This document shows, in pieces, positions 22,101-64,000 of a stretch of 64,000 nucleotides of DNA. Location of the stretch: NCBI GenBank assembly GCA_000002445.1, contig CP000069.1, forward strand, positions 96,001-160,000, written 5' to 3'. The stretch is from Trypanosoma brucei (Eukaryota). The position numbers were made by a program, and so were the translations under genes. A model generated the notes under the pieces. It was not told the DNA's origin. It searched no databases and saw only the letters and a list, made by a program, of their open reading frames with translations. Within the stretch, counting starts at the first letter, position 1, and each line of letters starts with the position of its first letter.

Positions 22101-25100
22101 CCTTGAAGGAAACCCGCTCCCAAATGCTTTACGTATGCGTTGGTAACACGCCACGGCCAAGCACGTCATGAAAAGAATGAAATACACATTTCGATGTTTC
22201 GGCAAGTGGAACGCGCCTCGTGAACAAAACATTGCTGGAGGGAAATATCGTGGTCAGCTGGGGCGACGTTGCATCGACAGACAACCCCGCAGACGGCATT
22301 TCTTCGGGTGGGCCGGTTATGCCCAGAAGTTGCGAAAGGGTGTGGGGCAGGTGAAGCACACGCTTTCAGCAATTCCTTGCCGTAACTAAAATCCTTAACA
22401 TAACATATTGATTTACCATTTCTTTTTCAGCAAACGGGTCCACTGTTGTTCAATTTACGAGAGCAGTCTGCTTATCGTTTCCTCACCATTTTTTTTTTCG
22501 GCATGGGGTATGTAAGAAAATGAGTATTATTTTATCACCTTAACTCGGGCAGGCTGTTGGTGAGTTATAAATATCCGTGCAACCCCGCAAGTTGCTGCTA
22601 ACTTATCCCACTCACAAGGAAGCTCACCGCAACCGCTCTCGTCATTCCCCAATGAAAGAAAGAACAGGATCAATGGCACATTAGCACACACACACAAACA
22701 AACAAACACGTATATGTATTTCATGTGCGTTGCTGCTTCTTTCCTGCAAGGAAGTATTTAAGTGTGATGTGGGGCAAGAGTTTGGATTGTTTCTTATTTC
22801 AGTGCCGCAGTCGCTTGTTTGTTGTTTTGTTTCCGCCAGCGTTTACCTCGGCTAATGCGTCTCGGCTCTTAATAATTTCTGTTGTGCCCTTCGCCTTTTG
22901 TGTGGCTGCCTGGCTGGCTGTTCCTCTCATATACTTCTTAAAGGCGCTTTCCAGACAGGAAAAGTTTCCCCTTGGGCACGAATGTCGCATAGCACATGCA
23001 GTGGAAGAAGGGCGTAAGAACATGCGCGACGGAAGAACCGAATCTCATCCAGTTCCGCTTTCTCTTTTTTTTTCTCCTTTGTACCCTACTTTACTTGCAA
23101 ACGCCGCAATCATGTGGAAACACTTGGTCCCCTCTTATGACATCAATCATCTGCCTTTTGGGATGCATTGTCACTCCTCCCTTTTCCTTCATTCATCTTC
23201 GTGTTGTTGCGTCGTCACTCACTCATCCGGTTAGACACACCCTCCACATCCATTCGCACCATTTTCCTCATATTCCGAGTCTCATGCAGCAGAGAGCATG
23301 TATTTATCCATTTTATTTCTTTCCTTGGGTCCACCCAACAGGTTTCGTGTTTGGACCGTAACACAAATTTCATTTCCTGGTCGCAACCCAAACGCCGTTC
23401 GCGATCAGACGAGTTTCAATTCCGGGTAATGGGCCCCTTTCCACTTTGAAATGATTGAACCCTCTTTTTCGCACTTCCAATGGTTGCTGCCACCGTCACC
23501 ACACCTTCTCCACGTAGCGTTGGAAAGAAGTAAGGAATAATAAAAACGCATCTGAGCAACGCAGCAGCGATCAGCCAGTGGACCTCATCAGAGTTTGTGC
23601 CTCCAATCTCATTCCCAAACCAAAAAATTAATCGGGCCCGCATGCGGCACGAGGCGTCCGGCGACTACGGGGGTTTACAAAAGAAGGAAAGTGATGTAAC
23701 AAAAGGAGTTACATAAACATCGCGACCGCACGCACTCCGGCCATACAGGGCTGGAAAATTAATAAAACAACCCGCTCAGGGATAACAATTGTCCTTGAGG
23801 GAAAAAGGTTGGATGCCTGCAGCCGCACGAGTTCCGCTGCGATTCAGGTGAGTTTATCCTTTCCCCCTGAAGGTCGACAGTGTTTCCCTCCATTTGTTCC
23901 CTTCCCAAATAATATCTTCAGCACGTAGCAGTATTTTTGATATTCCAAAGCGGCTGCCAGTGCGTACACTCCTGCATGGGGGGAAAAGCCCCAAGTGAGG
24001 GCGGCAGATATGCGCAAGTAACAATCAGAGCCCATGCACGCAAACACACATGATGTAAAGGGAAACATGTAACAGGTATGCCAAATGCTCAGTTGAGGTT
24101 ACACACTGCAGCGACGTAGACGCTCCCTCCCGCCACAACTCGCCGTAGCTCCTCATCGCACAGTTAAAATGTCAAGGGTTCAGTCTTGAATTACCACAAA
24201 ATACGGATAAATGAGGTTTGCCCCTATAAAGGAGCGGCATTTCTGCACTCCCCTCGAGTGTCCAAACAGTGTTGTAAATAACAGAAGGATATTATAGGCT
24301 CAGCAATATTAACAGAGTGAACGTGTTACAAAACTCCCTCACAATAAAATAATTAGTATAAGCTGCAATAACTGCGACGGTGAGGGAACTTTGTTATACT
24401 GCGAGGCAACGCGGGTTTCAGTACATAACTAAGCTCATGCATCGACATCACACTCTGGAGGGAATGGAGGCAATCACATACCTTAAATCCTTACGGCAAC
24501 ACAAATGAGTGAAGGGAAAGAAAGCATGCAACTGGTGAAACAACATGTAACATCAGCAATGCAGAGGGTGATAAGGGTTGTATATCCGAAGAGAGAGATA
24601 CAACAGCCCACATAACACCCAACACATACAAACACACATGCAACATAACACTCATTATGAAAAAATATTTAAAGACACCGCTAGCATTAAGTGGATTCAA
24701 AAAGAAAAACGTGACGCAGACACACACGGAAACACAGTTTTGTACCCAAAAGGTTGCGGGATTGGGCGTGAGAGGTGGAATTTAAAAAAATAAAATAAAA
24801 TAGTCATGCACTCGCACGCTTAAGGACAGACGTGTTGAAAAAGAAATGTTTCACCTTATTTTTCTTAAAGCCTCAAATGGCAAGGACACAAATAAAAAAG
24901 AGAGCCCTTAGGGAAAGTACATAGCTAATCCCGTTTTGTGATTACTCACAGAACAAAAACGTTTTGGTTAAATTAGAAGAAATGTTGAGCCGTCCTGTCT
25001 TCCATAAGTGTCGGATTTGGAACAGTAAGAAACCAACCGGCGCTGACACGGCAAAACACATGCATGTGTTAATTCAGTGTCTTGAAAGACAACGCACGTG

Positions 25101-25350
25101 TAATCTAACAGAGGGCATGTTCCCTCTTAAGATTAGTATGTGCTTTAATGCAGAGGCAGCAGCCACCAAAAATAGAATGTAAAAAATGTAATAATAAATA
25201 GATGGCAAAAGATAAAAATAGATACAAAAGACAAACCCTACCGAGACTACGTTAAAATTCACTAACAACTACTACAATCGGTATGCTAATTAACTTTTCC
25301 GCCGAGTAAAACTAAGAGATTTGTACGCTTTATGACGTGCAACAGTACCA

Positions 25351-28300
25351 CTAATGTAACGACGGAAGCGGACACCCAAAGTGGCCTTCTCTGAAATGTG
25401 AACCAACGAATGGAACAATTATGATTGAGCCCTCTTCAGTACTCACAGAAGCTTCACTGCTTCCACTTTGAGCGCTACGGTCAGCGACACGCCCAACCTT
25501 AACTGCAATGCGACGCACCACTTCCTCACAGTAGGCGTCATCCCACTCGAATGCGGCTTCACGGGGAAGAGGCACACGCCAACGCTCACAAAGCGACGCC
25601 AGAAGATTCCCCCGTTGCGCTGCTTTAAAAGTTCGGAAAACAGACTGCAGTGAGTTCAATATCGATTGTGCTGATTCACTCAGCTCGGCACGTGAAGAAC
25701 TGTGGTCGCTTGTGGAGGTTGTCGTGCCATCCTCGTCTTCATCAAAGAATTCGCGATCCAGCCGTAATGCAGCAAAGTTGCGGCCAGGCACGGCATTCAA
25801 CTGGTACATTTCCACAGGATCATTCACGCCACGAAGTGCAACATCACCAAGTGCAGTGACATCAATTTGCTCACGCTCCTCAGCTGACAGTGACATGTAA
25901 ACCTCATGCGTCATCAGCACCTGACCACCATTTGCTACACTCTCTGTCCTTTCTGCCATGTTTGGAGTCCGCCCATAGTAGTCATATCCCTTCGTCACTT
26001 CATCGTGTCGGATGTCGCACAACCCGGTGTGGATTCCAACACGTACACGCAGGCCATTCCACAAACGACTGTACACTTTGAGGTCCAACCGCGCAGTTGG
26101 CGGTGTGTACTTCTCGTCCTCCTCCGCACGCTGCTGCTCCAACTGCTGGTAAGAATCATCAATCGCATTTGTTCCCCAGTCATGATGCAAGAAACACAGC
26201 TGTAGTTCCTGTGCGAGTTGGACGGCAGCGAAAGGACTCTTACTCGCTATCATGAACGAATCCCCAACAGTTTTGACTTCGTAGCACTTATACCTCCCAA
26301 TCAGTGAACGAATCAAATAGTGATGTGTCGCAACGGCATCAGGCATCAGCTCAGGGTGTGCAGCCCACAACGCAGTGCTGCTCTCAATGTCAGTAAATAT
26401 TAGTGTCACGGGGTCAGTTTGTTCCTTGGGTGCAAGATTGTTATCACGGGCATTCCGGTGTGTTGCTAATATAACAACCACAAGAACCGTAACAAGCGGC
26501 ACCAACATTACGACGAAGCCAACTGCAATAGCGGCAATTTGCTCAGTCATCTGTTGGATCCATCTCGGTTCATCATAGGTCACTCACAGTGTGGCAGACG
26601 ACAGCGCAGAGGACACAAAAGGGTTTAGAACATGTGACATCGACCATACAAAAATATGCATCCCACCACCGTTGACAACAGTGCTTCGCCTCAAGTCAAG
26701 TTTCGTTCGTACACTTGTCTCCAAACGACCCATACATTGCAGGACACTTCCCATTGCGTATGCGATGGCAGACCCAAGTAGTGACAATGGCTTCCACTTC
26801 GACTCATTCTGCACGATCTTGCGGAACTCACGTACTGTTTTGGACTCCGTGATCTTATCCCTCCGATGTGACAGATTCGTTGCGAATAGCAAGGGGTTAG
26901 AAAATGGCTTTTCATGGAAGGCACTCACGAGTTCGCCGTGGATTGGTGCATCATCGAAGAATAGGACAAAGACGTGCACATTACGGTGTTTGTTAGGGTG
27001 AAAGAGGATTATGGGGATATTATATGGGATAAGACCTACAACCAATACCTGACATGCAGTTGACAGCTTGTCTCTCAAATTAGGACCTTCACCACTCGCA
27101 ACAAAGAAGCTTAGTGATGTGTTAAAGTTGTCAAGTGTTTTTGCAACATATTCCTAATTCCTCTCGTATCACCACCACGACACACAATGACATGCATTCT
27201 TCCTGCACCATTTTGTATAATATGCTCAACTATCATAAATAACTGCTGCTCATTTGTTGGTAACAGGTGGATCACATTCCTTCTGGGGTTACTCGGTTGT
27301 GATGTGAGTATTATAGGATCGATGAATGCCATACCCTTCGTCCGCAGTAACGAATTATCCACGACACCAAACACAGCAGTTACAACTCGTTTCTCAACAT
27401 CATTATACAGAGTTGCAGAAGCTTCGTAAGATTTCGAGGATAGTCAGTGTAAAAAGAAACCATCAGAGTGACCCAGTTGACCTTTGCCAACAACATGAGG
27501 GACACCATCGTATACCATCTATGCAGCACGCAGTGCCTTTGGGTCATCGGTTATATTAAACATGACCCCACTCAATGGGCCATACAACTGTGGCAGGTCT
27601 CGATAACAGCGAGATGAACCAAGGGTTAATATAGCTTCCTTCATAGGGTGTAGATGGAGATCCTTTTCCACCTTCTTCATGCACATCACACTCCCACCTT
27701 GGTTACGTAAACACGATACACCCCGCTCTCCCGCCATATTACGGCACTCACCACCAAAGTCACCAACCACAATATTATCAATTGGATAACGACGTTTATT
27801 GTACAGTGATTTCATAAATACACCCCTGCTAGTTAGCTATTCGTGACAACTCAGTGCCTGTTTCAATACCTCTCCAGCAACCCATCTGTTCAATGTCAGC
27901 TCAGCTTCAGCGTCTTGCTCGGTGAAGTTATTTTCGTTAATATCCCACCTTGTGCGCTTATAGTTATTACCATTAACCTTTAACAACATAGTCATATCAT
28001 CCCTGAAACGCCTGACAGCTTTGTATGTGTCACCCTTCGTAATTAGGTCAGCCCCAGTTATTATTATTTTATCAGCCACAAACTCGTCTCTGCCCAATTT
28101 ATATGCCCACTTGTTCTTGACGGCGTGTTGGAGTGCAGAGGGTGTATGAATAAATATTCGCCTCTCGTCCTGTGGTCATATAATCATTTCATGGGGAATC
28201 TCTTCATATCAGGGATTGGAGAACCAAATACAATCACTCCCTGAGGTCCAGTATCGGCAACCTTATTCCACTCCGCACTGAAGCTACTGTTATCCGATTC

Positions 28301-28930
28301 CTTACCAATTTGACTCTTCAATGCAAAAAAATAACAACTAAACAACTTGCGATTCATCCGTGTTGCCAACTACGCAGCAAGCTTATACTCATCATCACCA
28401 TAAGAAACATCTTTCAAATACATGAAATCCAGTCGGTGTGACCGTAACTGAGTGATAGCATAACGGAAAAGAGCAAGCATCTCAACGGCGAGTGATGCTT
28501 CCAGGAGTCATAAATTGGGATTCCAACTGTGTACCCTACTGAATCCTGTGAAGGGCAAAAAATCAACTACACATTCTTTTCATTGAAATATTTGGTTAAG
28601 TTGAGAGTATTTTTGTCACCCACAGGTTCCAGTATAATGGCAAGCTCATCACCGTAATTGGTTGTACAGATGGCGTATCCAAAGTCATCCATAGACGAAA
28701 CATGTGCAACTGCCACACTGACACACGGAAGCGACTTTCCGTTGGTAATAGATGCGTTGAAGCCTGCAGTAATAGGATCAAATACCTTTGCTGAAATCTT
28801 GTCACTGTATAACATGTTGTATACCCTTACCCATATTAATCCATTTGCAAGCTATACTTCAGCCAGCAGCTGTAGTAATATAGAAAAACACCACGTAAGT
28901 GACTACGCCATCTCTAGCATGTAATTCACG
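25351..28930 (-). pseudogene. GRESAG4: Divergent receptor-type adenylate cyclase paralogue, disrupted (pseudogene copy A)
   Basis: The C-terminal 410-aa ORF (25351-26583) carries a TM helix (IAAIAVGFVVMLVPLVTVLVVVILA) plus a complete class III cyclase catalytic domain (VTLIFTDIESST, VKTVGDSFM, GIHTG, YDYYGRTPNMAERTES). It is separated by a TGA (SSATL*VTYDE) from the upstream in-frame piece 26584-27078. Further upstream pieces lie in other frames (27111-27374, 27519-27815, 27837-28097, 28184-28369, 28567-28815). They are collinear with successive segments of the full-length extracellular domain but share only about 30-45% aa identity with it. Confidence 0.8.
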
Positions 28931-30012
28931 CATGGAGGTAACCGTGATACTAGTAACTCAACGTAATTCAACTTTCAAACTACAGGACAAAAACGGCATA
29001 ATAACAAAGTATTGGTACAAGATTAATAGACTGCATGTGTATATGTAAGAGCGTGGGAAAGGGAACTACTGTAGTGGATAACATTACACAAACCATAACA
29101 GCGAGAAAGTAGTTCAACACACATTCCCCCATACACCCACATATCATTCATGTATCCGATACAAAAACATAAAACATCACTAGGCATAAGGGTAAATGTG
29201 TAGATAGAACATTACAGTATCATAAACTGGATTGCCATTAACAAAAACACAGCACACTAACAGTCACAGTTAACACTCAAACTGTAAATTTTAACTCACA
29301 ACATCACGGCAGACATTGCTCAGTTTCATATTCCTTGACTGTCTAGGAGTAAAAGAGAGTGTGCGAGAGAATATGAGGAAAGCTTCAGCAACCATAGAGA
29401 AATATAAAGGAAGTTATACACATGTATCAGATATTGCAAATAGTTACATGCAGCAAGGTGATTAAGAGATACCTTACAAGCCAGCATCTCCGAATGAAAA
29501 AAAAAAATTAGGGTAGACGCGAGGGATAAGCACAGGAGGTCACTTTTACTTCGCTATAGCCTCCGCTTCATGGGCATCACCTTATTATCAAACACATTTT
29601 TAAATGCAAGGACACAGCTCCTAACAACACATTAGAGGTGGAGCGCCTCACATGACAACGGACCACACGGACGGCAATATAAATTTAAATAAGATATTAT
29701 TTAGAAGAAGTTAAGCATTAATAGTGGCGTGGATGCACACATCCCTCACTACGTTAAACAGAAAATTAACGACTTTCATATATTGTAATCAAAAGATAGT
29801 ATGCCCATTTCAAAAATAAAATGCATCCCTGTGCATAAAAATATTTAAACACCCAACATATGAGGAAAATATTGCATGCACAAAAAGTTGGGGAGCAAAG
29901 TATTAGAAGAACACTATATGAAGTGAATCTAAAAAAAGTTTGCACATATTATATAAACATTATTATCCATTTACAACAACAAAACATACATACATCAATG
30001 TCATGAGAAATA

Positions 30013-33819: not shown

Positions 33820-33861
33820 ATTTTCGGGAATGTGTGACACTTTTCGTGTGTGAAATCTTAT

Positions 33862-33910
33862 GTCCTAAGGAAGAATATCAAAAGAGGGAAAATAGAAATC
33901 AGTAAGATTA
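33862..33910 (-). promoter_or_regulatory. Polypyrimidine tract plus AG (minus strand), candidate SL acceptor for copy 1
   Basis: The reverse complement reads cttactgatttctattttccctcttttgatattcttccttAGgacataag, about 45 nt upstream of the ATG at 33819. The same motif precedes copies 2 and 3. Confidence 0.5.
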
Positions 33911-39700: not shown

Positions 39701-40310
39701 CAATGCAAAAAAATAACAACTAAACAACTTGCGATTCATCCGTGTTGCCAACTACGCAGCAAGCTTATACTCATCATCACCATAAGAAACATCTTTCAAA
39801 TACATGAAATCCAGTCGGTGTGACCGTAACTGAGTGATAGCATAACGGAAAAGAGCAAGCATCTCAACGGCGAGTGATGCTTCCAGGAGTCATAAATTGG
39901 GATTCCAACTGTGTACCCTACTGAATCCTGTGAAGGGTAAGAAATCAACTACACATTCTTTTCATTGAAATATTTGGTTAAGTTGAGAGTATTTTTGTCA
40001 CCCACAGGTTCCAGTATAATGGCAAGCTCATCACCGTAATTGGTTGTACAGATGGCGTATCCAAAGTCATCCATAGACGGAACATGTGCAACTGCCACAG
40101 ACACACGGAAGCGACTTCCCGTTGGTAATAGATGCGTTGAAACCTGCAATAATAGGATCACATACCTTTGCTGAAATCTTGTCACTGTATAACATGTTGT
40201 ATACCCTTACCCATATTAATCCATTTGCAAGCTATACTTCAGCCAGCAGCTGTAGTAACATAGAAAAACACCACGTAAGTGACTACGCCATCTCTAGCAT
40301 GTAATTCACG
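36736..40310 (-). pseudogene. GRESAG4: Divergent receptor-type adenylate cyclase paralogue, disrupted in the extracellular part (pseudogene copy C); retains a 574-codon open frame over the TM and catalytic domain
   Basis: 36736-38460 is open for 574 codons (TTG at 38460; first ATG about 38136 giving about 466 aa). It encodes the distal extracellular region, the TM and a complete catalytic domain with no internal stop. Upstream collinear pieces are in other frames or interrupted (38493-38756, 38901-39197, 39219-39479, 39566-39751, 39949-40185). The same disruption pattern is seen in copies A and E. Confidence 0.8.
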
Positions 40311-46440: not shown

Positions 46441-46456
46441 AAAAAAAAAAAAAAAC
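46441..46456. repeat. Homopolymer A15/16
   Basis: caagcaaaaaaaaaaaaaaaacacagc in the unique spacer between the inverted array arms. Confidence 0.9.
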
Positions 46457-54895: not shown

Positions 54896-54934
54896 CTGAT
54901 TTCTATTTTACCTCTTTTGATATTCTTCCTTAGG
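54896..54934 (+). promoter_or_regulatory. Polypyrimidine tract plus AG, candidate SL acceptor for copy 3
   Basis: ttctattttacctcttttgatattcttccttAGgacataag, about 45 nt upstream of the first ATG at 54979. Confidence 0.5.
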
Positions 54935-54978
54935 ACATAAGATTTCACACACGAAAAGTGTCACACATTACCGAAAAT

Positions 54979-57900
54979 ATGAGCTGGCAGGAAGGTGGTG
55001 GAAGAGGATGTGTGTACCCTCATGGAAACTGCAGGCGGAACCTTACCGCAAGGAGCCCTGCAAGGCGTTACAGCAAGTACAAGCACTCACCTGTCATTAC
55101 TGCTGTATCACTGCTACACTTGTTGCCTTTGCTACTCATGTGGATGCCACCTGTGTGCGCGGAAGCGAGTACTGTGACGGTAAATGTGCTATCCATGATG
55201 CATAATCCAGCTTATACCGAAGGTGAAATTAACGCCATTAATGCCGGCTTTGACGCATCACTGAGTGCCCACAGCCGGAAGACGGGCTCTAATGCGACAA
55301 TATCTGTCATCCGTCACCCATCACCCAATGCGACAGTTGAGGAGATATTTCAGCATGGAATGAAACAAAGTGAAGGGAAGTTATTAGTTGTATTCGGGCC
55401 CCTGGGTAGTGACCGTGTCGCAAATGTCCGTGATAAACTGAAGGAACATGATCTTGTTGCCCTCGCTCCCGTTGCGCACTCCAGTGAGGTCCGTGGTTGG
55501 AACCCTCACCTCTATTTCATAAGTGTCGAACCCAATGCTGAACTCCTCGCCCTCATTCGTTATGCTGTTGTTTACCTCCGTGTCCCACGAATAGGTATGA
55601 TGCACGTGAAGAGCAGCACCGCCAGTATGGGACCGTATGAGTTTACTGTGCAGATATTGGAAATGATGGGTCGCGAGCTGTGTGGAATGTTCGTTGTGAA
55701 GGATAGTGAGAATCAAAATATCTCTGAGGATGATTTGAACGTCAGGTGGAGACAATTTGTTGCTACGCGCCCACAGGCTATATTGCTGTTTTCATCCCTG
55801 GGTAATACAGCAAAGTGGTTCATCAAGAAGGTAGCACAGGACAACCGCACTGCCAATGCGTATCTTCTTTCTACTTCACTACAGCAAAATTTTTTGATCA
55901 AGATGTGGCGTGAGGCATTGGCGTTAGCTAATCGTACATTCACTCCTGGACAGCTAATCACAACTGGAACAGTGCCGCTCGCCAGCGACATTCGGTTCTC
56001 ACTGATTCAGCACTTCCAGCATGACATGGACATCTACCTCAGGACAAACAATGACTGGAAGGGCTTTGCGAAACCCGATCACTACCTTGAGGACGACGGT
56101 TTAGGTGAGATGATGGTGTATGGGTGGCTTGCGGGAGAAGTTCTCTTCGAAGCTCTGAATAACGCTCCACAGCTGACGAACCGTAAATCATTCAGGGAAT
56201 CTCTGTACAAGCAGCGTCGCTACGTGATTGATGACCTTGTGGTTGGTGACTTTGGTGGTGAGTGCAATGAGGCCGTTGCATTACAGGGTGCCATGTGTGA
56301 ATGCAATCAAGGTGGCAGTATGGTATATATGAAGAGTATAATGGATGGCTTCCGACCAGCGCCTTTGTGGGAAGGACATCTAACGTGGGGTGTATCAGAG
56401 TGCTCGAGTGCCAATGTACATGTGGGTGCGCCATTGAGTGGCCTCTTTTTGCTTCTCGCAGATAATGAAATTGCATTACGTGCGAGCAGGAAGTGGTTTC
56501 TTGGTGCCGAGGTTCATGGCAAGGAAGCGGAGAATATTGACAATAGAATATTTTTCCATCCCCTAACAGTATCTTCAGAGAATGTGACGCAATCCCTTGA
56601 GCAAGTACAGGACAACAGGGATGTATCTGCAGTATTTGGTATCATGCCTGGAGGGCTTCTGGATCGAAAAGATTTAGTGTTCATCAGTCCTATGACACTT
56701 CGACCCCGCATGAAATTGTTTAGGAGAAACGTAATACACTTACTGCCTGTCCTTGCGCAGCAACTTTATGTGCTTGCTGTGTATCTCTCCAACACTTCTT
56801 CCAGAGGAGTAAATGCACTCATACGTAGTGAGCAAGCAGGGGAGATCAGTAGCCTGCTGTACAAGTCATTGGACACGTTTGGTGTGCCGCTTGATTCCAG
56901 CAAGACACTTGGTGATGGTGACCCGATATCGTCATATCTCTCGGGTGATGGAGATGTGTTTACTATTGGACTCACTCTCACTGACGTTGCTGCAGTTGCG
57001 CGGCACCTTCAGGCACACCGCAGGGCACGTGTATTCATTCCATTCAATGACCTTGCAATGTACTACGATGAGTTTGTAGCTGCGTTTAATGCGAGTAAAG
57101 AGTCTATTGCTAGCTCAGAGCGGCTCCTATTCGCGACGAGTTTTCCACACTGGGCGGAGAAGGACACGAAATCAGATGTGGTTGCGAGTTTCCATCGCAT
57201 TGTGAATGAATCGCATTGGGATCCACTAACGTTCTTAGGTTTTGTTACCACTCGGCTGCTTCAAGTGATTCTCCCGAATATGAAGAAAGTGAATGCAGAG
57301 CTGCTGGCAGACCGCATTTACACGGAGTCCAACATCAAAGTGGATGACATGCGATTTGGACCCTTCAATGATGTGGAATGTGTTTCTGGTACGAGTGTTT
57401 CGGCAAATGAGTGTGCCTCAAACTTTGGAGCCACAAACATTTCTGTATGGTCGATGGCGCGTGTGCTGAATTCAAGTGTGCCCATATTGCAACGCGGCAT
57501 GACACCGTCTATGGGGTTTTCCATTGCAGGAGGGAGTCGTCTCACAGGGTCACAGATAGCCGGCATAGGTATCGGGTGTATAGCCGGCTTGATACCTTTT
57601 ATTGCCCTTGGTGTGCTCCTACGCATCACCCTGCGGAATGCTCGTGATAACAATCTTGCGCCCAAGGAGCCAACGGACCCTGTGACACTAATATTTACTG
57701 ACATTGAGAGCAGCACTGCGTTGTGGGCTGCACACCCTGAGCTGATGCCCGATGCCGTTGCGACACATCACTATTTGATTCGTTCACTGATTGCGAGGTA
57801 TAAGTGCTACGAAGTCAAAACTGTAGGGGATTCGTTCATGATAGCGAGTAAGAGTCCTTTCGCTGCCGTCCAACTCGCACAGGAATTACAGCTGTGTTTC

Positions 57901-58797
57901 TTGCAACATGACTGGGGAACAAATGCAGTTGATGATTCTTACCAGCAGTTTGAGCAGCAGCGTGCGGAGGAGGACGAGAAGTACACACCGCCAACTGCGC
58001 GGTTGGACCTTAAAGTGTACAGTCGTTTGTGGAATGGCCTGCGTGTACGTGTTGGAATCCACACCGGGTTGTGCGATATCCGACACGATGAAGTGACGAA
58101 GGGATATGACTACTATGGGCGGACTCCAAACATGGCAGCAAGGACAGAGAGTGTAGCAAATGGTGGTCAGGTGCTGATAACAGGCTCAACATACCTGTCA
58201 CTGTCAGCTGAGGAGCGTGAGCAAATTGATGTCACTGCACTTGGTGGTGTGCCGCTACGTGGTGTGCCCGATCCTGTGGAAATGTACCAGTTGAATGCCG
58301 TGCCTGGCCGCAACTTTGCTGCATTACGGCTGGAACGTGAAATCGAGGATGAAGAAGATGTTGGAACAGGTAGTAGCGCTAGTGAGTCGAGCTTTAATGA
58401 GTGTGGTTTAACTGCCACCGCCCAACAGGTTGCTGGTTGCATTGATGCTCTCATTGGCGCATTTCCAGTTATCCAGCGACAGAAGATGCTTGCAACATTT
58501 TGTGAGCGTTGGCATGTTAAGAAGCCCCCAGGGGTGGATGCTTGGAATGAAGCCAGTTGTCGCTGTGTTACCCGTCGGATTGCTGCAAAGGTGGGCCGTG
58601 TTATGGATTTTGGAACGAGGAGCTCCTCCAGCAGTGTGACATCATTGGAAAGGGGTGGAAGTCTCTTTTCACCTGGAGGAGCTACTGTTGCAACGGTTGC
58701 TTCATCTTCAAACTTTTCCTATGTTGAGGGGCGACGCTGCACTCTGCACTTGATTGACCTGGAAAGTGTTGAGAGTGCCAGCCAATATCCTTCATGA
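54979..58797 (+). CDS. GRESAG4: Receptor-type adenylate cyclase, full length (copy 3, 1272 aa from first ATG)
   Basis: The track ORF starts at a GTG at 54958, and the first ATG is at 54979 (MSWQEGGG...). Same domain layout as copies 1 and 2. It is a mosaic: some segments match copy 1 (LGNTAKWFIKKV) and others match copy 2 (MMHNPAYTEGEIN, ITGSTYLS, C-terminal SASQYPS). The catalytic motifs are intact. Confidence 0.9.
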   Translation: MSWQEGGGRGCVYPHGNCRRNLTARSPARRYSKYKHSPVITAVSLLHLLPLLLMWMPPVCAEASTVTVNVLSMMHNPAYTEGEINAINAGFDASLSAHSRKTGSNATISVIRHPSPNATVEEIFQHGMKQSEGKLLVVFGPLGSDRVANVRDKLKEHDLVALAPVAHSSEVRGWNPHLYFISVEPNAELLALIRYAVVYLRVPRIGMMHVKSSTASMGPYEFTVQILEMMGRELCGMFVVKDSENQNISEDDLNVRWRQFVATRPQAILLFSSLGNTAKWFIKKVAQDNRTANAYLLSTSLQQNFLIKMWREALALANRTFTPGQLITTGTVPLASDIRFSLIQHFQHDMDIYLRTNNDWKGFAKPDHYLEDDGLGEMMVYGWLAGEVLFEALNNAPQLTNRKSFRESLYKQRRYVIDDLVVGDFGGECNEAVALQGAMCECNQGGSMVYMKSIMDGFRPAPLWEGHLTWGVSECSSANVHVGAPLSGLFLLLADNEIALRASRKWFLGAEVHGKEAENIDNRIFFHPLTVSSENVTQSLEQVQDNRDVSAVFGIMPGGLLDRKDLVFISPMTLRPRMKLFRRNVIHLLPVLAQQLYVLAVYLSNTSSRGVNALIRSEQAGEISSLLYKSLDTFGVPLDSSKTLGDGDPISSYLSGDGDVFTIGLTLTDVAAVARHLQAHRRARVFIPFNDLAMYYDEFVAAFNASKESIASSERLLFATSFPHWAEKDTKSDVVASFHRIVNESHWDPLTFLGFVTTRLLQVILPNMKKVNAELLADRIYTESNIKVDDMRFGPFNDVECVSGTSVSANECASNFGATNISVWSMARVLNSSVPILQRGMTPSMGFSIAGGSRLTGSQIAGIGIGCIAGLIPFIALGVLLRITLRNARDNNLAPKEPTDPVTLIFTDIESSTALWAAHPELMPDAVATHHYLIRSLIARYKCYEVKTVGDSFMIASKSPFAAVQLAQELQLCFLQHDWGTNAVDDSYQQFEQQRAEEDEKYTPPTARLDLKVYSRLWNGLRVRVGIHTGLCDIRHDEVTKGYDYYGRTPNMAARTESVANGGQVLITGSTYLSLSAEEREQIDVTALGGVPLRGVPDPVEMYQLNAVPGRNFAALRLEREIEDEEDVGTGSSASESSFNECGLTATAQQVAGCIDALIGAFPVIQRQKMLATFCERWHVKKPPGVDAWNEASCRCVTRRIAAKVGRVMDFGTRSSSSSVTSLERGGSLFSPGGATVATVASSSNFSYVEGRRCTLHLIDLESVESASQYPS

Positions 58798-59859
58798 CAT
58801 TGATGTATGTTTTGTTGTTGTAAATGGATAATAATGTTTATATAATTTAAATTATTTTTAGATTAGTCTTGTATAAGGCATTTTTAACTCTTTGCTCCCC
58901 AACTTTTTGCGCATGCAATATTTCCCTCATATGTTGGGTGTTTAAATATTTTTATGCACAGGGATGCATTTTATTTCTGAAATGGGCACACCATTTTTTG
59001 ATTGTAATATATGAAAGTCGTTAATTTTCTGTTTAACGTAGTGAGGGATGTGTGCATCCACGCCACCATTAATGCTTAAATTTTCGTAAATAATATCTTA
59101 TTTAAATTTAAATTGCCGTCCGTGTGGGCCGTTGTCAAGTGAGGCGCTCCACCTCTAATGTGTTGTTAGGAGCTGTGTCCCTGCATTTAAAAATGTGTTT
59201 GATAATAAGGTGATGCCCATGAAGCGGAGGCTATAGCGAAGTAAAAGTGACCTCCTGTGCTTATCCCTCGCGTCTACCCTAATCTTTTTTTTTCATTCGG
59301 AGATGCTGGCTTGTAAGAGGTATCTCTTAATCACCTTGCTGCATGTAACTATTTGCAATATCTGATACATGTGTATAACTTCCTTTATATTTCTCTATGG
59401 TTGCTGAAACTTTCCTCATATTCTCTCGCACACTCTCTTTTACTCCTAGACAGTCAAGGAATATGAAACTGAGCAATGTCTGCCGTGATGTTGTGAGTTA
59501 AAATTTACAGTTTGAGTGTTAACTGTGACTGTTAGTGTGCTGTGTTTTTGTTAATGGCAATCCAGTTTATGATACTGTAATGTTCTATCTACACATTTAC
59601 CCTTATGCCTAGTGATGTTATATTTTTTTGTATCGGATACATGAATGATATGTGGGTGTATGGGGGAATGTGTGTTGAACTACTTTCTCGCTGTTATGGT
59701 TTGTGTAATGTTATCCACTACAGTAGTTCCCTTTCCCACGCTCTTACATATACATATGCAGTCTATTAATCTTGTACCAATACTTTGTTATTATGCCCTT
59801 TTTGTCCTGTAGTTTGAAAGTTGAATTACGTTGAGTTACTAGTATCACGGTTACCTCCA

Positions 59860-62800
59860 TGCGTGAATTACATGCTAGAGATGGCGTAGTCACTTACGTA
59901 GTGTTTTTCTATGTTACTACAGCTGCTGGCTGAAGTATAGCTTGCAAATGGATTATTATGGGTAAGGGTATACAACATGTTATACAGTGACAAGATTTCA
60001 GCAAAGGTATTTGATCCTATTACTGCAGGCTTCAACGCATCTATTACCAACGGGAAGTCGCTTCCGTGTGTCAGTGTGGCAGTTGCATATGTTCCGTCTC
60101 TGGATGACTTTGGATACGCCATCTGTACAACCAATTACGGTGATGAGCTTGCTATTATACTGGAATCTGTGGGTGACAAAAATACTCTCAACTTAACCAA
60201 ATATTTCAATGAAAAGAATGTGTAGTTGATTTCTTACCTTTCACAGGATTCAGTAGGGTACACAGTTGGAATCCCAATTTATACCTCCTGGAAGCACCAC
60301 TCGCCGTTGAGATGCTTGCTCTTTTCCGTTATGCTATCACTCAGTTACGGTCACACCGACTGGATTTCATGTATTTGAAAGATGTTTCTTATGGTGATGA
60401 TGAGTATAAGCTTGCTGCGTAGTTGGCAACACGGATGAATCGCAAGTTGTTTAGTTGTTATTTTTTTTTTTTTTGCATTGAAGAGTCAACTTGATAAGGA
60501 ATCGGATAACAGGAGCTTCAGTGCGGAGTGTAATAAGGTTGCCGATACTGGACCTCAGGGAATGATTGTATTTGGTTCTCCAATCCCTGATATGAAGAGA
60601 TTCCCCATGAAATGATTATATGACCACAGGACAAGAGGCGAATATTTATTCATACACCCTCTGCACTCCAACACGCCATCAAGAACAAGTGGGCATATAA
60701 ATTGGGTAGAGACGAGTTTGTGGCTGCTAAGATAATAATAACTGGGGCTGACCTAATTACGAAGGGTGACACATACAAAGCTGTCAGGCGTTTCAGAGAT
60801 GATATGACTATGTTGTTAAAGGTTAATGGTAATAACTATAAGCGCACAAGGTGGGATATTAACGAAAATAACTTCACCGAGCAAGACGCTGAAGCTGAGC
60901 TGACATTGAACAGATGGGTTGCTGGAGAGGTATTGAAACAGGCACTGAGTTGTCACGAATAGCTAACTAGCAGGGGTGTATTTATGAAATCACTGTACAA
61001 TAAACGTCGTTATCCAATTGATAATATTGTGGTTGGTGACTTTGGTGGTGAGTGCCGTAATAAGGCGGGAGAGCGGGGTGTATCGTGTTTACGTAACCAA
61101 GGTGGGAGTGTGATGTGCATGAAGAAGGTGGAAAAGGATCTCCATCTACACCCTATGAAGGAAGCTATATTAACCCTTGGTTCATCTCGCTGTTATCGAG
61201 ACCTGCCACAGTTGTATGGCCCATTGAGTGGGGTCATGTTTAATATAACCGATGACCCAAAGGCACTGCGTACTGCATAGATGGTATACGATGGTGTCCC
61301 TCATGTTGTTGGCAAAGGTCAACTGGGTCTCTGATAGTTTCTTTTTACACTGACTATCCTCGAAATTTTACGAAGCTTCTGCAACTCTGTATAATGATGT
61401 TGAGAAACGAGTTGTAACTGCTGTGCTTGGTGTCGTGGATAATTCGTTACTACGGACGAAGGGTATGGCATTCATCGATCCTATAATACTCACATCACAA
61501 CCGAGTAACCCCAGAAGGAATGTGATCCACCTGTTACCAACAAATGAGCAGCAGTTATTTATGATAGTTGAGCATATTATACAAAATGGTGCAGGAAGGA
61601 TGCATTTCATTGTGTGTCGTGGTGGTGATACGAGAGGAATTAGGAATATGTTGCAAAAACACTTGACAACTTTAACACATCACTAAGCTTCTTTGTTGCG
61701 AGTGGTGAAGGTCCTATTTTGAGAGACAAGCTGTCAACTGCATGTGAGGTATTGGTTGTAGGTCTTATCCCATATAATATCCCCATAATCCTCTCTCACC
61801 CTAACAAACACCGTAATGCGCACGTCTTCGTCCTGTTCTTCGATGATGCACCAATCCACGGCGAACTCATGAATGCCTTCCATGAAGAGCCATTTTCTAG
61901 CCGCTTGCTATTCGCAACGAATCTGTCACATCGGAGGGATAAGATCACGGAGTCCAAAACAGTACGTGAGTTCCGCAAGATCGTGCAGAATGAGTCGAAG
62001 TGGAAGCCGTTGTCACTACTTGGGTCTGCCATCGCATACGCAATGGGAAGTGTCCTGCAATGTATGGGTCGTTTGGAGACAAGTGTACGAACGAAACTTG
62101 ACTTGAGGCGAAGCACTGTTGTCAACTGTGGTGCGATGCATATTTTTGTATGGTCGATGTCACATGTTCTAAACCCTTTTGTGTCCTCTGCGCTGTCGTC
62201 TGCCACACTGTCAGTGACCTATGATGAACCGAGATGGATCCAACAGATAACTGAGCAAATTGCCGCTATTGCAGTTATCTTCGTCGTAATCTTGGTGCCG
62301 CTTGTTACGGTTCTTGTGGTTGTTATATTAGCAACACACCGGAATGCTCGTGATAACAATCTTGCGCCCAAGGAACCAACTGACCCCGTGACACTAATAT
62401 TTACTGACATTGAGAGCAGCACTGCGTTGTGGGCTGCACACCCTGAACTGACGCCCGATGCCGTTGCAACACATCACTATTTGATTCGTTTACTGATTGG
62501 GAGGTATAAGTGCTACGAAGTCAAAACTGTAGGGGATTCGTTCATGATAGCGAGTAAGAGTCCTTTCGCTGCCGTCCAACTCGCACAGGAACTGCAGCTG
62601 CGTTTCTTGCATCATGACTGGGGAACAAATGCACTTGATGAGTCCTACCAGCAGTTTGAGCAGCAGCGTGCGGAGGAGGACGAGAAGTACACACCGCCAA
62701 CTGCGCGGTTGGACCCTAAAGTGTACAGTCGTTTGTGGAATGGCCTGCGTGTACGTGTTGGAATCCACACCGGGTTATGCGACATCCGACACGATGAAGT

Positions 62801-63443
62801 GACGAAGGGATATGACTACTATGGGCGGACCCCAAACATGGCAGCAAGGACGGAGAGTGTAGCAAATGGTGGTCAGGTGCTGATAACAGGCTCAACATAC
62901 CTGTCACTGTCGGCTGAGGAGCGTGAGCAAATTGATGTCACTGCACTTGGTGATGTTGCACTTCGTGGCGTGAATGATCATGTGGAAATGTACCAGTTGA
63001 ATGCCGTGCCTGGCCGCAACTTTGCTGCATTACGGCTGGATCGCGAACTCTTTGATGAAGACGAGGATGGCACGACAACCTCCACCAGCGACCACAGTTC
63101 TTCACGTGCCGAGCTGAGTGAATCAGCTTAGATATTGAACTCACTGCAGTCTGTTTTCCGAACTTTTAAAGCAGCGCAACGGGGGAATCTTCTGGCGTCG
63201 CTTTGTGAGCGTTGGCGTGTGCCTCTTCCCCGTGAAGCCGCATTCGAGTGGGATGACGCCTACTGTGAGGAAGTGGTGCGTCGCATTGCAGTTAAGGTTG
63301 GGCGTGTCGCTAACCGTAGCGCTCAAAGTGGAAGCAGTGAAGCTTCTGTGAGTACTGAAGAGGGCTCAATCATAATTGTTCCATTCGTTGGTTCACATTT
63401 CAGAGAAGGCCACTTTGGGTGTCCGCTTCCGTCGTTACACTAG
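59860..63443 (+). pseudogene. GRESAG4: Divergent receptor-type adenylate cyclase paralogue, disrupted (pseudogene copy E, inverted orientation)
   Basis: Collinear fragments lie in different frames (59977-60225, 60702-60962, 60984-61280, 61423-61686). A 470-codon open frame 61719-63131 covers the TM and catalytic domain and ends at a TAG after ...AELSESA. The C-terminal tail then continues in frame at 63135-63443. The catalytic motifs are intact (FTDIESST, TVGDSFM, GIHTG, NMAARTES). Confidence 0.8.
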
Positions 63444-64000
63444 TGGTACTGTTGCACGTCATAAAGCGTACAAATCTCTTAGTTTTACTCGGCGGAAAAG
63501 TTAATTAGCATACCGATTGTAGTAGTTGTTAGTGAATTTTAACGTAGTCTCGGTAGGGTTTGTCTTTTGTATCTATTTTTATCTTTTGCCATCTATTTAT
63601 TATTACATTTTTTACATTCTATTTTTGGTGGCTGCTGCCTCTGCATTAAAGCACATACTAATCTTAAGAGGGAACATGCCCTCTGTTAGATTACACGTGC
63701 GTTGTCTTTCAAGACACTGAATTAACACATGCATGTGTTTTGCCGTGTCAGCGCCGGTTGGTTTCTTACTGTTCCAAATCCGACCCTTATGGAAGACAGG
63801 ACGGCTCAACATTTCTTCTAATTTAACCAAAACGTTTTTGTTCTGTGAGTAATCACAAAACGGGATTAGCTATGTACTTTCCCTAAGGGCTCTCTTTTTT
63901 ATTTGTGTCCTTGCCATTTGAGGCTTTAAGAAAAGTAAGGTGAAACATTTCTTTTTCAACACGTCTGTCCTTAAGCGTGCGAGTGCATGACTATTTTTTT

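What the first reader, a model, noticed from the sequence alone, without database searches (positions are those of the whole stretch)
22690..64000. Palindromic adenylate-cyclase array: two direct ~11.4 kb units (minus strand) mirrored by an inverted unit (plus strand) across a 9.1 kb unique spacer
Units at 22.7-34.1 kb and 34.1-45.5 kb are direct repeats, each carrying one functional-looking GRESAG4-type cyclase gene plus one degenerate paralogue. The segment 54.64 kb to the window end is their reverse complement. Identity breaks sharply at about 45540 on the left and about 54640 on the right, roughly 335 bp upstream of the first ATG of the inner genes on both sides. The inner genes therefore diverge from the spacer. 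This is the layout expected at a divergent strand-switch region between two polycistronic units. It could equally be the footprint of an inverted segmental duplication. The two direct units are nearly identical, so long arrays like this are also classic assembly-collapse or assembly-expansion sites.
Basis: seen in the sequence. Interest (0 to 1): 0.6.

Follow-up and report, generated by a model that had tools for sequence, protein, structure and literature searches.

The report
Trypanosome adenylate-cyclase gene palindrome
This is a real, already annotated stretch of Trypanosoma brucei chromosome 6 where surface-receptor adenylate cyclase (GRESAG4) genes were copied in tandem and in mirror image around a 9-kb non-coding gap; it is an ordinary kind of locus for this parasite.

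Summary
Two direct 11.4-kb units (22695-34079 and 34080-45570, minus strand, 97.5% identical) face a reverse-complement copy (54619-64000, about 97%) across a unique, non-coding 9,048-bp spacer.

The window is T. brucei brucei TREU927 DNA, inferred to be chromosome 6. The three intact genes are the annotated GRESAG4 proteins XP_845156, XP_845157 and XP_845158.

Misassembly is unlikely. A separately assembled T. b. equiperdum contig spans the left-arm end, the whole spacer and the right arm at 98% identity without gaps.

New detail: each unit is a pair of reciprocal chimeras. A GRESAG4.1-type gene is interrupted at a ~730-bp catalytic-domain block by one period of a chromosome-4-type cyclase array. 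This leaves one intact hybrid gene and one hybrid pseudogene, which was already frameshifted before the units were copied.

In T. b. equiperdum the right arm is bracketed by a 223-bp direct repeat, which suggests it is the derived, inserted inverted copy. Gene conversion has since scrambled the intact genes across the arms.

The spacer has the layout, size and strand-composition flip of a divergent strand-switch region, but transcription initiation there is inferred and was not tested.

The locus is ordinary and already annotated, so interest is low to moderate.

The parts
22695..34079 (-). Outer left tandem unit, holding the intact cyclase XP_845156 and pseudogene psiA. Its last 44 bp (22695-22738) are a stub of the next cassette's 5' edge.
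   Evidence: Direct repeat with 34080-45499 at 97.5%. Stub found.
34080..45570 (-). Inner left tandem unit, holding the intact cyclase XP_845157 and pseudogene psiB. Its inner end at 45570 is the left arm/spacer junction.
45571..54618 (.). Unique non-coding spacer of 9,048 bp, the putative divergent strand-switch region. Strand composition flips at about 51.0 kb.
   Evidence: No similarity elsewhere in the window. No tRNA or Rfam hit. 131-145 stops per ~3,016 codons in the two frames reported. No credible Pfam domain in 10 of the 20 spacer ORFs of 70 aa or more, including all of 89 aa or more; the only hit was far below cut-off, UNC80_N at E=0.037. GT fraction of the + strand is below 0.5 left of 51 kb and above 0.5 to the right. 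98.8% identical to T. b. equiperdum.
54619..64000 (+). Right (inverted) arm: one unit holding the intact cyclase XP_845158 and pseudogene psiD. It is truncated by the window end.
   Evidence: Reverse-complement match to 36178-45570 (96.8%) and to 24793-34127 (97.0%).
30013..33819 (-). Intact receptor-type adenylate cyclase, 1268 aa from the first ATG. An in-frame ATG at 33693 sits directly before the signal-like hydrophobic segment.
   Evidence: Pfam PF25495 + PF25493 + PF00211. Exact match to XP_845156. ATG positions.
41385..45206 (-). Intact receptor-type adenylate cyclase, 1273 aa, with a transmembrane helix at aa 864-882.
   Evidence: Pfam. Catalytic domain matches PDB 1FX2 (GRESAG 4.1) at E=1.4e-135. 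Exact match to XP_845157. Hydropathy.
54979..58797 (+). Intact receptor-type adenylate cyclase, 1272 aa.
   Evidence: Pfam. Exact match to XP_845158.
25351..28942 (-). Pseudogene psiA, a full-length relic of a chromosome-4-type GRESAG4 lying in 3 reading frames with 4 frame changes. Its C-terminal tail is 4.1-type.
   Evidence: tblastn with P0046, aa 2-1207, frames 3/1/3/2/1. Tail typing.
36736..40267 (-). Pseudogene psiB, with frame changes at about aa 267 and 608. It is 98.9% identical to psiA.
59905..63443 (+). Pseudogene psiD, with frame changes at about aa 130, 497 and 608 plus an extra stop at 63129-63131.
41815..42548 (-). Catalytic-domain block of ~730 bp, the crossover and gene-conversion tract shared by the intact gene and the pseudogene. 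Equivalent copies lie at 30431-31164, 57634-58367, 25724-26457, 37129-37839 and 62340-63073.
   Evidence: 93.1-96.9% overall by BLAST. 87-100% per 100-bp bin inside the block against 36-59% in the flanks, with sharp edges.
38506..42558 (-). Segment derived from one period of a chromosome-4-type GRESAG4 tandem array: catalytic block, then C-tail, then intergenic DNA, then the N-terminal half of the next gene.
   Evidence: Colinear with the DAL972 chromosome-4 array L004:12525-16649, 76.6% over 4,178 bp.
45252..45287 (-). Predicted polypyrimidine tract and AG trans-splice acceptor, with the AG 45 nt upstream of the ATG. It is conserved in all copies; the mirror copy lies at about 54900-54933(+).
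   Evidence: Read from the sequence. Use as an acceptor is not tested.
54404..54626 (+). 223-bp segment (the last 215 bp of the spacer plus the first 8 bp of the arm) that recurs after the right-arm unit in T. b. equiperdum, so that it brackets the unit.
   Evidence: L002:21032-21254 is 98.7% identical to 54404-54626. Base-level alignment.

Best explanation
This is a genuine palindromic GRESAG4 (receptor-type adenylate cyclase) locus of Trypanosoma brucei. The chromosome-6 assignment is an inference. The locus was built by recombination in four steps.

1. A GRESAG4.1-type gene acquired one ~4.7-kb period of a chromosome-4-type cyclase tandem array by homologous recombination inside the conserved catalytic-domain block. 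The result was an 11.4-kb unit of two reciprocal hybrids. One stayed intact: a 4.1-type ectodomain with a chromosome-4-type tail. The other decayed into a pseudogene.
2. One unit was copied in inverted orientation onto the far side of about 9 kb of non-coding DNA, giving head-to-head genes.
3. Units were duplicated in tandem on the arms.
4. Gene conversion keeps exchanging patches among the intact genes of both arms, and between the catalytic blocks of gene and pseudogene. Copy number varies between strains.

Trypanosome genes lack individual promoters and are transcribed as one-directional polycistrons. The spacer must therefore act as a divergent strand-switch region that starts RNA polymerase II leftwards and rightwards, if these genes are expressed.

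Shown here: the structure, the chimerism, the shared lesion, the reproducibility in other assemblies and the conversion mosaic. Inferred: the order of events and transcription initiation in the spacer.
For: Structure: repeat coordinates and identities; unique spacer.

Gene identity:
- Pfam PF25495, PF25493 and PF00211.
- PDB GRESAG 4.1 and 4.3 catalytic domains at E=1e-135 and 1e-127.
- Exact matches to XP_845156, XP_845157 and XP_845158 of TREU927, with a fourth family member, XP_845159, next in accession order.
- Transmembrane helix at aa 864-882.
- dN/dS of 0.15-0.47 in the catalytic block and tail, and 0.45-0.82 in the ectodomain.

Chimerism:
- The intact gene's N-terminal part is 67-70% identical to P0038 and GRESAG4.1, against 38% to P0046-type proteins.
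- Its tail is 73-75% identical to the P0046 type, against about 40% to the 4.1 type.
- The pseudogene shows the reverse pattern.
- The ~730-bp block is sharply bounded.
- Window 42558-38506 is colinear with a chromosome-4 array including its intergenic DNA.

Pseudogenisation before duplication: all three copies share a frameshift at about aa 608.

Real, not an artefact:
- L002 (T. b. equiperdum IVM-t1, de novo contigs per PMC6395869, with no N runs) is colinear with window 44971-62503 at 98.0%.
- L003 covers the left junction at 99.0-99.6% in the spacer.

Derived right arm: the 223-bp direct repeat bracketing the unit in L002. No such bracket exists on the left arm.

Gene conversion:
- Informative sites are heterogeneous along the unit (chi-square 108.6, p=6e-15; 0 of 5000 permutations reach it).
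- The pseudogene half gives 79:20:22, which favours the two left units as sisters.
- The intact-gene half gives 52:100:110.

Copy-number variation: L003 and DAL972 each carry a single non-chimeric gene with the same cassette edges.

Strand-switch reading:
- Head-to-head orientation.
- 9,048 bp falls within the 5-10 kb stated for T. brucei divergent strand-switch regions (PMC11796357).
- No coding signal in the spacer.
- Strand composition flips at about 51 kb.
- A conserved polypyrimidine tract and AG lie upstream of each ATG.
Against: - No transcription, chromatin or long-read data could be examined, so initiation in the spacer rests only on gene orientation and base composition.
- The 223-bp bracket was seen in T. 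b. equiperdum only. In the window the distal end of the right arm lies beyond 64000.
- The gene distal to the unit in T. b. equiperdum has no TREU927 homologue in the protein database. The flanking context therefore may differ between strains.
- IVM-t1 chromosomes were scaffolded on TREU927, and PacBio coverage was low. The contig is de novo, but it is largely a short-read assembly.
- The single-gene haplotypes could be either the ancestral state or secondary pop-outs. The direction of step 1 is a model.
- The chromosome-4 array match is only 77-80%, so the true donor array was not identified.
Confidence: 0.8

Rival explanations
1. Assembly artefact: the inverted arm or the second tandem unit was created by a mis-join or by expansion of a collapsed repeat in the reference assembly.
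For: Near-identical 11-kb repeats are typical trouble spots for assemblers. An independent contig (L003/L005) shows a different unit count and a different join at 19472.
Against: - The copies differ by 2.5-3%, about 25 differences per kb. They also carry private indels and lesions, so they are distinct sequences and not duplicated reads.
- Both junctions and the whole spacer are reproduced in a T. b. equiperdum contig without N runs.
- The left junction is reproduced in L003.
- The annotated proteins of all three genes are distinct database entries.
Confidence: 0.03
2. An ancient divergent strand-switch region with independently resident cyclase genes on each side. Under this reading the arm similarity comes from concerted evolution (gene conversion) and not from an inverted duplication event.
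For: - Gene conversion is active here and is documented for GRESAG4 arrays (PMC1855330).
- The 5' homology edge is shared with a DAL972 gene that sits in a different context, so it behaves as a cassette edge.
- Strand composition already flips inside the spacer.
Against: - Homology covers the whole 9.4 kb visible in the right arm. That includes the non-coding tails, the intra-unit intergenic DNA and a pseudogene with the same frameshift, none of which conversion between functional genes alone would be expected to homogenise.
- The pseudogene and tail half gives a clean tree-like signal, 79:20:22.
- A 223-bp direct repeat brackets the right unit in T. b. equiperdum.
Confidence: 0.1
3. The arrangement is real, but the spacer is not an active bidirectional promoter. 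Under this reading the cyclase arrays are silent, are transcribed only by read-through from neighbouring units, or are expressed on one arm only.
For: - No transcription data were available.
- No consensus RNA polymerase II promoter motif exists to test (PMC9566855).
- The locus lies in a region with pseudogene fragments.
- Whole polycistronic units nearby can be silenced epigenetically (PMC11796357).
Against: - The intact genes on both arms are under purifying selection in the catalytic block and tail, with dN/dS of 0.15-0.47.
- They keep conserved splice-acceptor signals.
- In both arms the sense strand shows the composition of transcribed DNA, continuing into the adjacent part of the spacer.
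- Read-through from the neighbours would be antisense. The transporter gene is on the + strand and converges on the left arm.
Confidence: 0.12

Closest known systems
GRESAG4 / ESAG4 receptor-type adenylate cyclase family of African trypanosomes, including its chromosome-internal tandem arrays (Jackson 2007, PMC1855330; T. b. gambiense genome paper, PMC2854126)
   Same: - Same domain architecture: two periplasmic-binding-protein-like domains, a transmembrane helix and a class III cyclase domain.
- Very strong match to the solved GRESAG 4.1 and 4.3 catalytic domains.
- Head-to-tail copies with gene-conversion mosaics and a fast-evolving ectodomain.
- The three genes are the annotated TREU927 proteins XP_845156, XP_845157 and XP_845158.
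   Different: - The repeat unit is two genes long, one intact and one dead. Both are reciprocal hybrids of two subfamilies.
- The array is mirrored across a spacer instead of being purely head-to-tail.
- This array is not among those catalogued in the two papers read; for chromosome 6 the gambiense genome paper lists only Tb927.6.760.
Divergent strand-switch regions (RNA polymerase II transcription start regions) of T. brucei, such as the HpHbR bidirectional promoter region on chromosome 6 (Kieft et al. 2024, PMC11796357)
   Same: - Head-to-head gene clusters separated by 5-10 kb of non-coding DNA.
- Strand composition flips inside the gap.
- It lies on the same chromosome arm, and is inferred to be the next divergent switch to the left of the HpHbR one.
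   Different: - Here both diverging clusters consist only of copies of one duplicated unit.
- The head-to-head layout appears to have been created by an inverted duplication.
- No chromatin or polymerase data were examined for this spacer.
Large palindromes and inverted segmental duplications with a unique spacer, maintained by arm-to-arm gene conversion (for example human Y-chromosome ampliconic palindromes; from general knowledge, not tested here)
   Same: - Arms of 9.4 kb or more at about 97% identity around a unique spacer.
- Patchy exchange of variants between the arms.
- Inverted repeats that could mediate inversion of the intervening DNA.
   Different: - Arm identity is much lower (97% against more than 99.9%), and conversion is patchy, mostly in the intact genes.
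- The arms are themselves tandem arrays.
- The organism transcribes polycistronically, so the spacer must double as a promoter region.

Membership tests
Trypanosomatid receptor-type adenylate cyclase (GRESAG4/ESAG4) | Extracellular region made of two periplasmic-binding-protein-like domains | tested here: met
   PF25495 (E=1e-49 to 1e-52) and PF25493 (E=1e-131 to 1e-132) in all three intact ORFs.
Trypanosomatid receptor-type adenylate cyclase (GRESAG4/ESAG4) | Class III cyclase catalytic domain close to the solved GRESAG4 structures | tested here: met
   PF00211 at E=1e-44 to 6e-45. PDB 1FX2 at E=1.4e-135 and 1FX4 at E=8.3e-127.
Trypanosomatid receptor-type adenylate cyclase (GRESAG4/ESAG4) | Single transmembrane helix between the ectodomain and the catalytic domain | tested here: met
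   The strongest hydrophobic 19-mer is aa 864-882 (Kyte-Doolittle 2.51), lying between PF25493 (ends at 855) and PF00211 (starts at 904).
Trypanosomatid receptor-type adenylate cyclase (GRESAG4/ESAG4) | N-terminal signal peptide | tested here: inconclusive
   A signal-like hydrophobic stretch lies at aa 39-57 from the first ATG and not at the N-terminus. Only the outer-left gene has an ATG (33693) directly before it; the other two genes have GTG there. No signal-peptide predictor was available.
Trypanosomatid receptor-type adenylate cyclase (GRESAG4/ESAG4) | 'GRESAG' status, meaning a chromosome-internal location and not a telomeric VSG expression site | tested here: met
   The locus is flanked by a nucleoside transporter gene. 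Related loci sit next to M20 peptidase, LRR protein, HpHbR and procyclin genes. No expression-site features were seen in the window.
Divergent strand-switch region / RNA polymerase II transcription start region of T. brucei | Flanking protein-coding genes on opposite strands pointing away from each other | tested here: met
   41385-45206(-) and 54979-58797(+).
Divergent strand-switch region / RNA polymerase II transcription start region of T. brucei | Non-coding gap of about 5-10 kb | tested here: met
   The gap is 9,048 bp. It has no credible Pfam domain in the 10 ORFs scanned (only a far-below-cut-off hit at E=0.037), no tRNA and no Rfam hit. The size range comes from PMC11796357.
Divergent strand-switch region / RNA polymerase II transcription start region of T. 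brucei | Enrichment of H2A.Z/H2B.V, H4K10ac, SPARC and RNA polymerase II, with diverging nascent transcripts | not testable with these tools
   No ChIP-seq or RNA-seq data were accessible. The only related observation is a strand-composition flip at about 51 kb.
Divergent strand-switch region / RNA polymerase II transcription start region of T. brucei | Sequence-specific core promoter elements | not tested
   The Cordon-Obras 2022 paper is not in the library. Staneva et al. report that they could not find such motifs under their peaks (PMC9566855), so no usable consensus exists.
Inverted segmental duplication (palindrome with spacer) | Reverse-complement arms with high identity and sharp inner boundaries | tested here: met
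   96.8-97.0% identity over 9.35-9.41 kb. The boundaries are at 45570 and 54619, the same distance from the ATGs within 4 bp.
Inverted segmental duplication (palindrome with spacer) | Non-functional sequence and shared lesions present in both arms, showing common descent and not convergence or conversion of genes only | tested here: met
   A shared pseudogene frameshift at about aa 608, and shared non-coding tails and intra-unit intergenic DNA.
Inverted segmental duplication (palindrome with spacer) | Reproducible in an independent assembly or in long reads | tested here: met
   L002 (T. b. equiperdum) spans both junctions at 98% with no N runs. L003 spans the left junction. TREU927 long reads were not available.
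Inverted segmental duplication (palindrome with spacer) | Insertion footprint at the derived copy | tested here: inconclusive
   A 223-bp direct repeat brackets the right unit in T. b. equiperdum. The corresponding end in the window's genome lies beyond position 64000.
Tandem gene array under concerted evolution (Jackson 2007) | Head-to-tail copies with mosaic phylogenetic signal from gene conversion | tested here: met
   Period of 11,385 bp. Informative-site patterns are heterogeneous along the unit, with chi-square 108.6, p=6e-15 and 0 of 5000 permutations reaching it. A sharp ~730-bp conversion block lies between gene and pseudogene.

The most novel reading that the evidence does not exclude
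The head-to-head layout is evolutionarily young. An inverted insertion of a cyclase unit split what had been a single minus-strand polycistron and turned about 9 kb of former intra-polycistron DNA into a new bidirectional RNA polymerase II start region. That region drives two short polycistrons made only of GRESAG4 copies.

The same inverted repeats would also make the locus structurally unstable. Signs of this are unit-number variation and a possible ~20-kb inversion of the neighbouring transporter segment between strains.

If this is right, the locus is a natural experiment on how trypanosome transcription start regions arise, given that their promoters are poorly defined.
Probability: 0.15. 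Interest if true: 0.6.

Novelty: already known. Interest (0 to 1): 0.28.

Why it matters
GRESAG4 cyclases are abundant flagellar surface receptors of African trypanosomes. The literature implicates them in dampening host innate immunity and in parasite social behaviour. Their copy number and ectodomain diversity are thought to be adaptive in an organism that cannot regulate genes through individual promoters.

This locus shows compactly how the family grows and diversifies:
- recombination at the conserved catalytic-domain block shuffles ectodomains and tails between subfamilies;
- tandem and inverted duplications multiply the result;
- gene conversion and unit loss keep remodelling it between strains.

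For genome users, the practical point is that short reads map ambiguously across 22.7-64 kb. Expression or SNP calls for these genes, such as the selection scans that list Tb927.6.280 and Tb927.6.300, should be treated with care.

None of this changes current understanding, and the genes and their orientation are in the public reference annotation.

Tried and rejected
- tRNA scan and Rfam scan of the whole window found nothing. The spacer is therefore not a tRNA or snRNA cluster of the kind sometimes found at strand switches.
- A sensitive blastn of the spacer against the window found no internal palindrome and no other copy.
Ten of the twenty spacer ORFs of 70 aa or more, including all of 89 aa or more, were scanned instead and gave no credible domain; the only hit was UNC80_N at E=0.037, 14 bits against a 27-bit cut-off. 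No retroelement library was available, so degenerate ingi, RIME or DIRE remnants cannot be excluded.
- Exact-protein look-ups for TREU927 proteins failed because that genome is not indexed. As a result I could not read the chromosome to the left of position 1 or to the right of 64000.
- A literature search by gene ID mostly returned word-start false positives (Tb927.6.2800.3000.3300.2200). Only PMC4224348 lists Tb927.6.280 and Tb927.6.300 as cyclases.
- The 2026 T. brucei pangenome preprint does not mention cyclases, chromosome 6 or palindromes. Siegel et al. 2009 is not held.
- I first suspected the spacer might be the HpHbR bidirectional promoter of Kieft et al. 2024. I rejected this. That strand-switch region separates a five-gene HpHbR cluster from an opposing five-gene cluster that includes 6.360, whereas both clusters here are cyclase arrays.
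- I tried to anchor the T. b. equiperdum distal gene to the TREU927 gene order. No TREU927 homologue was found.
- The reading of the pseudogene as a decayed recent copy of the intact gene was rejected. Outside the ~730-bp block the two are only 36-59% identical at DNA level, and the pseudogene belongs to another subfamily.

Full report
**Observation.**
- Positions 22695-34112 and 34080-45499 are direct repeats: 97.5% identity over 11,439 columns, with a period of 11,385 bp.
- Positions 54619-64000 are the reverse complement of 36178-45570 (96.8%) and of 24793-34127 (97.0%).
- The right arm is cut off by the end of the window.
- A more sensitive blastn shows that the spacer, 45571-54618 (9,048 bp), matches nothing else in the window on either strand and has no internal palindrome.
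- The junctions lie 364 and 360 bp upstream of the first ATGs of the inner genes.

**Source and gene identity.**
- The three long ORFs carry two periplasmic-binding-protein-like domains and a class III cyclase domain.
- They match the solved GRESAG 4.1 and 4.3 catalytic domains at E=1e-135 and 1e-127.
- They have a transmembrane helix at aa 864-882.
- From their first ATGs they are exact matches to XP_845156, XP_845157 and XP_845158 of T. brucei brucei TREU927, on a 1,618,915-bp record.
- A fourth member of the same cluster, XP_845159, is next in accession order and must lie to the right of the window. The right arm therefore probably also has two units.
- Two more cyclases, XP_845148 and XP_845149, lie to the left of the window. 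XP_845149 (P0035) scored 91% identity to the inner-left gene.
- The gene at 15910-17301(+) is 100% identical to a TREU927 'adenosine transporter 1, putative' and only 56% identical to TbAT1.
- Related loci place this on chromosome 6. The T. b. gambiense record FN554969.1 carries a related cyclase next to HpHbR and procyclin genes, and HpHbR is Tb927.6.440 / Tbg972.6.120 (PMC2854126).
- PMC4224348 lists Tb927.6.280 and Tb927.6.300 as cyclases. Assigning those IDs to the genes in this window is my inference.

**Anatomy of a unit.**
- The 'degenerate paralogue' is a full-length relic (aa 2-1207) of a different GRESAG4 subfamily. Its best match is the chromosome-4-type protein P0046, at 58-74% in the N-terminal pieces.
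- The intact gene and the pseudogene share a sharply bounded ~730-bp block over the catalytic domain. Identity is 87-100% per 100-bp bin inside it (93-97% overall by BLAST) and 36-59% in the flanks.
- Typing the parts against other family members shows that the two genes are reciprocal chimeras.
 - The intact gene has a GRESAG4.1/P0038-type ectodomain (67-70% against 38%) and a P0046-type C-terminal tail (73-75% against about 40%).
 - The pseudogene has a P0046-type front and a 4.1-type tail (67-69% against 36%).
- Window 42558-38506 is colinear (76.6% over 4,178 bp) with a T. b. gambiense chromosome-4 cyclase array. The aligned stretch runs from one gene's catalytic domain, through its 3' end and the intergenic DNA, into the next gene.
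- The simplest model is that one ~4.7-kb period of such an array recombined into the catalytic block of a 4.1-type gene.
- Single, non-chimeric genes with the same cassette edges exist in T. b. gambiense (L001) and in a stray T. brucei contig (L003). They are either the ancestral state or pop-out products.

**Pseudogene history and selection.**
- All three pseudogene copies share a frame change at about aa 608. The two left copies share another at about aa 260-269. Each copy also has private lesions. The gene was therefore dead before the unit was multiplied.
- The intact copies show dN/dS of 0.15-0.47 in the catalytic block and tail and 0.45-0.82 in the ectodomain. This is consistent with functional genes that have a fast-evolving receptor domain.

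**The spacer.**
- It has no tRNA gene and no Rfam family.
- It has 131-145 stops per ~3,016 codons in the two frames reported.
- The 10 ORFs scanned, out of 20 of at least 70 aa, contain no credible Pfam domain; the only hit was far below cut-off.
- GC skew and the G+T fraction of the plus strand change sign at about 51.0 kb. DNA to the left resembles minus-strand-transcribed sequence, and DNA to the right resembles plus-strand-transcribed sequence.
- A conserved polypyrimidine tract and AG lie 45 nt upstream of each first ATG, inside the arms.

**Is it an assembly artefact?** This is unlikely.
- The copies differ by about 25 positions per kb and carry private indels.
- The T. b. equiperdum IVM-t1 record CM010677.1 (L002) aligns colinearly with window 44971-62503 at 98.0%. 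That stretch covers the inner end of the left arm, the entire spacer and the right arm. L002 contains no N runs.
- The IVM-t1 contigs were assembled de novo, and only the chromosome scaffolding used TREU927 (PMC6395869).
- The spacer is 98.8% identical between the strains and the arms 97.7%.
- A T. brucei contig that contaminates the Schistosoma mansoni assembly (L003/L005) spans the left junction, with 99.0-99.6% identity in the spacer.

**Origin.**
- The C, D and T. b. gambiense copies begin to share sequence at essentially the same point, although the gambiense gene has a different upstream neighbour. The sharp boundary is therefore the 5' edge of a recurrent cyclase cassette.
- Informative sites among the three units are strongly heterogeneous (chi-square 108.6, p=6e-15; 0 of 5000 permutations reach it). 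The pseudogene and tail half supports the two left units as sisters (79:20:22). The intact-gene half is a mosaic (52:100:110). This indicates an inversion followed by tandem duplication, with later gene conversion among intact genes across the arms.
- In T. b. equiperdum the right-arm unit is followed by about 25 bp of filler and then a 223-bp copy of window 54404-54626, which ends within 8 bp of the arm's start. The unit is therefore bracketed by a direct repeat, which is an insertion footprint.
- The left arm has no such bracket. It ends in a 44-bp stub of the cassette edge.
- I infer that the left arm is the original and the right arm the derived inverted copy. This cannot be checked in the window, because the right arm's distal end lies beyond 64000.

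**Transcription context.**
- Kieft et al. 2024 (PMC11796357) describe the HpHbR cluster as five genes that share a 5-10 kb bidirectional RNA polymerase II promoter region with an opposing five-gene cluster including 6.360. Convergent units flank this pair.
- The five plus-strand genes in L001 match that HpHbR cluster.
- The spacer studied here is therefore not the HpHbR promoter. It is inferred to be the next divergent switch to the left.
- The palindrome would then consist of two short polycistrons made only of cyclase copies. The left one converges on the transporter cluster at about 17-22.7 kb.
- Trypanosome polycistrons are unidirectional, so expression of both arms requires initiation inside the spacer. 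This follows from established biology, but it was not tested here.
- No consensus promoter motif is available for a sequence test (PMC9566855).

**Comparison and novelty.**
- The genes are members of the GRESAG4 family by every feature I could test. The N-terminal signal peptide is the one exception and remains inconclusive.
- Tandem GRESAG4 arrays, gene conversion within them and subspecies-specific segmental duplications are established (PMC1855330 and PMC2854126).
- The genes and their orientations are in the 2005 reference annotation. I therefore rate the finding as already known in kind and in fact.
- I found no paper that describes the mirror arrangement, the reciprocal-chimera unit or the 223-bp bracket. 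These are modest new details.

**Limits.**
- TREU927 itself is not indexed in the contig look-up, so the chromosome beyond the window could not be read.
- The gene distal to the right unit in T. b. equiperdum has no TREU927 homologue in the protein database.
- The contaminant contig joins window 4858->1 through 656 unmatched bp to 19472->. This implies either an inversion of the ~20-kb transporter segment in another strain or a chimeric contig. It remains unresolved.

Noticed in passing
L003/L005 (NW_017386323.1, 'Schistosoma mansoni' unplaced scaffold); also proteins P0036, P0061 and P0076: This scaffold and several 'S. mansoni' proteins (Smp_112590, XP_018644084.1) are T. brucei DNA. They are 99-99.8% identical to this window outside the cyclase gene, so they are contamination in the S. 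mansoni reference assembly and annotation.
   Followed up: partly
window 1-4858 and 19472; L003:11938-12594: The contaminant contig joins window 4858->1 (99.5%), then 656 bp absent from the window, then window 19472->26457 (about 99%). That order implies either an inversion of the ~20-kb segment carrying the nucleoside transporter relative to TREU927, or a chimeric contig. Cyclase units in opposite orientation on both sides could mediate such a flip, given that XP_845148 and XP_845149 lie to the left of the window.
   Followed up: partly
window 15910-17301 (+): An intact 463-aa equilibrative nucleoside transporter, 100% identical to TREU927 'adenosine transporter 1, putative'. It is only 56% identical to TbAT1 and 68-71% to the AT2-type genes. 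Its 90% cluster has a single member, so no close orthologue from other sequenced Trypanozoon genomes is in the database.
   Followed up: partly
window 33693, 45080 and 55105 (codon 50 of the long ORFs): The first ATG places 38-50 residues ahead of the only signal-peptide-like hydrophobic stretch (aa 39-57). The outer-left gene has an in-frame ATG directly before that stretch, while the other two genes have GTG (Val) there. The annotated N-termini may therefore be too long, or the copies may differ in targeting.
   Followed up: no
L001 (T. b. gambiense FN554969.1:14217-37954): The single cyclase upstream of HpHbR in DAL972 (P0037) shares three things with the window's units: the 5' cassette edge, a 4.1-type tail, and 448 bp of unit tail at 98% identity. 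Cassettes of this family therefore sit in at least two contexts on chromosome 6.
   Followed up: partly
window 775-1568 (-): Two adjacent short ORFs carry leucine-rich-repeat matches (LRR_4 and LRR_Zer-1). They look like fragments of a broken LRR-protein gene. Most of 1-15 kb has only short ORFs without Pfam matches.
   Followed up: no
window 17350-19100: A very AT-rich stretch (GC 0.29-0.40) with several short tandem repeats lies just downstream of the transporter gene. It sits in the zone where the plus-strand transporter cluster and the minus-strand cyclase array converge, and may be a termination region.
   Followed up: no
L002:21255-23819 (T. b. equiperdum): The DNA distal to the right-arm unit encodes a 285-aa zinc-finger-like ORF on the minus strand. 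Its only database match is in unnamed read-archive assemblies, with no TREU927 protein, so the flank of the right arm may differ between strains.
   Followed up: partly
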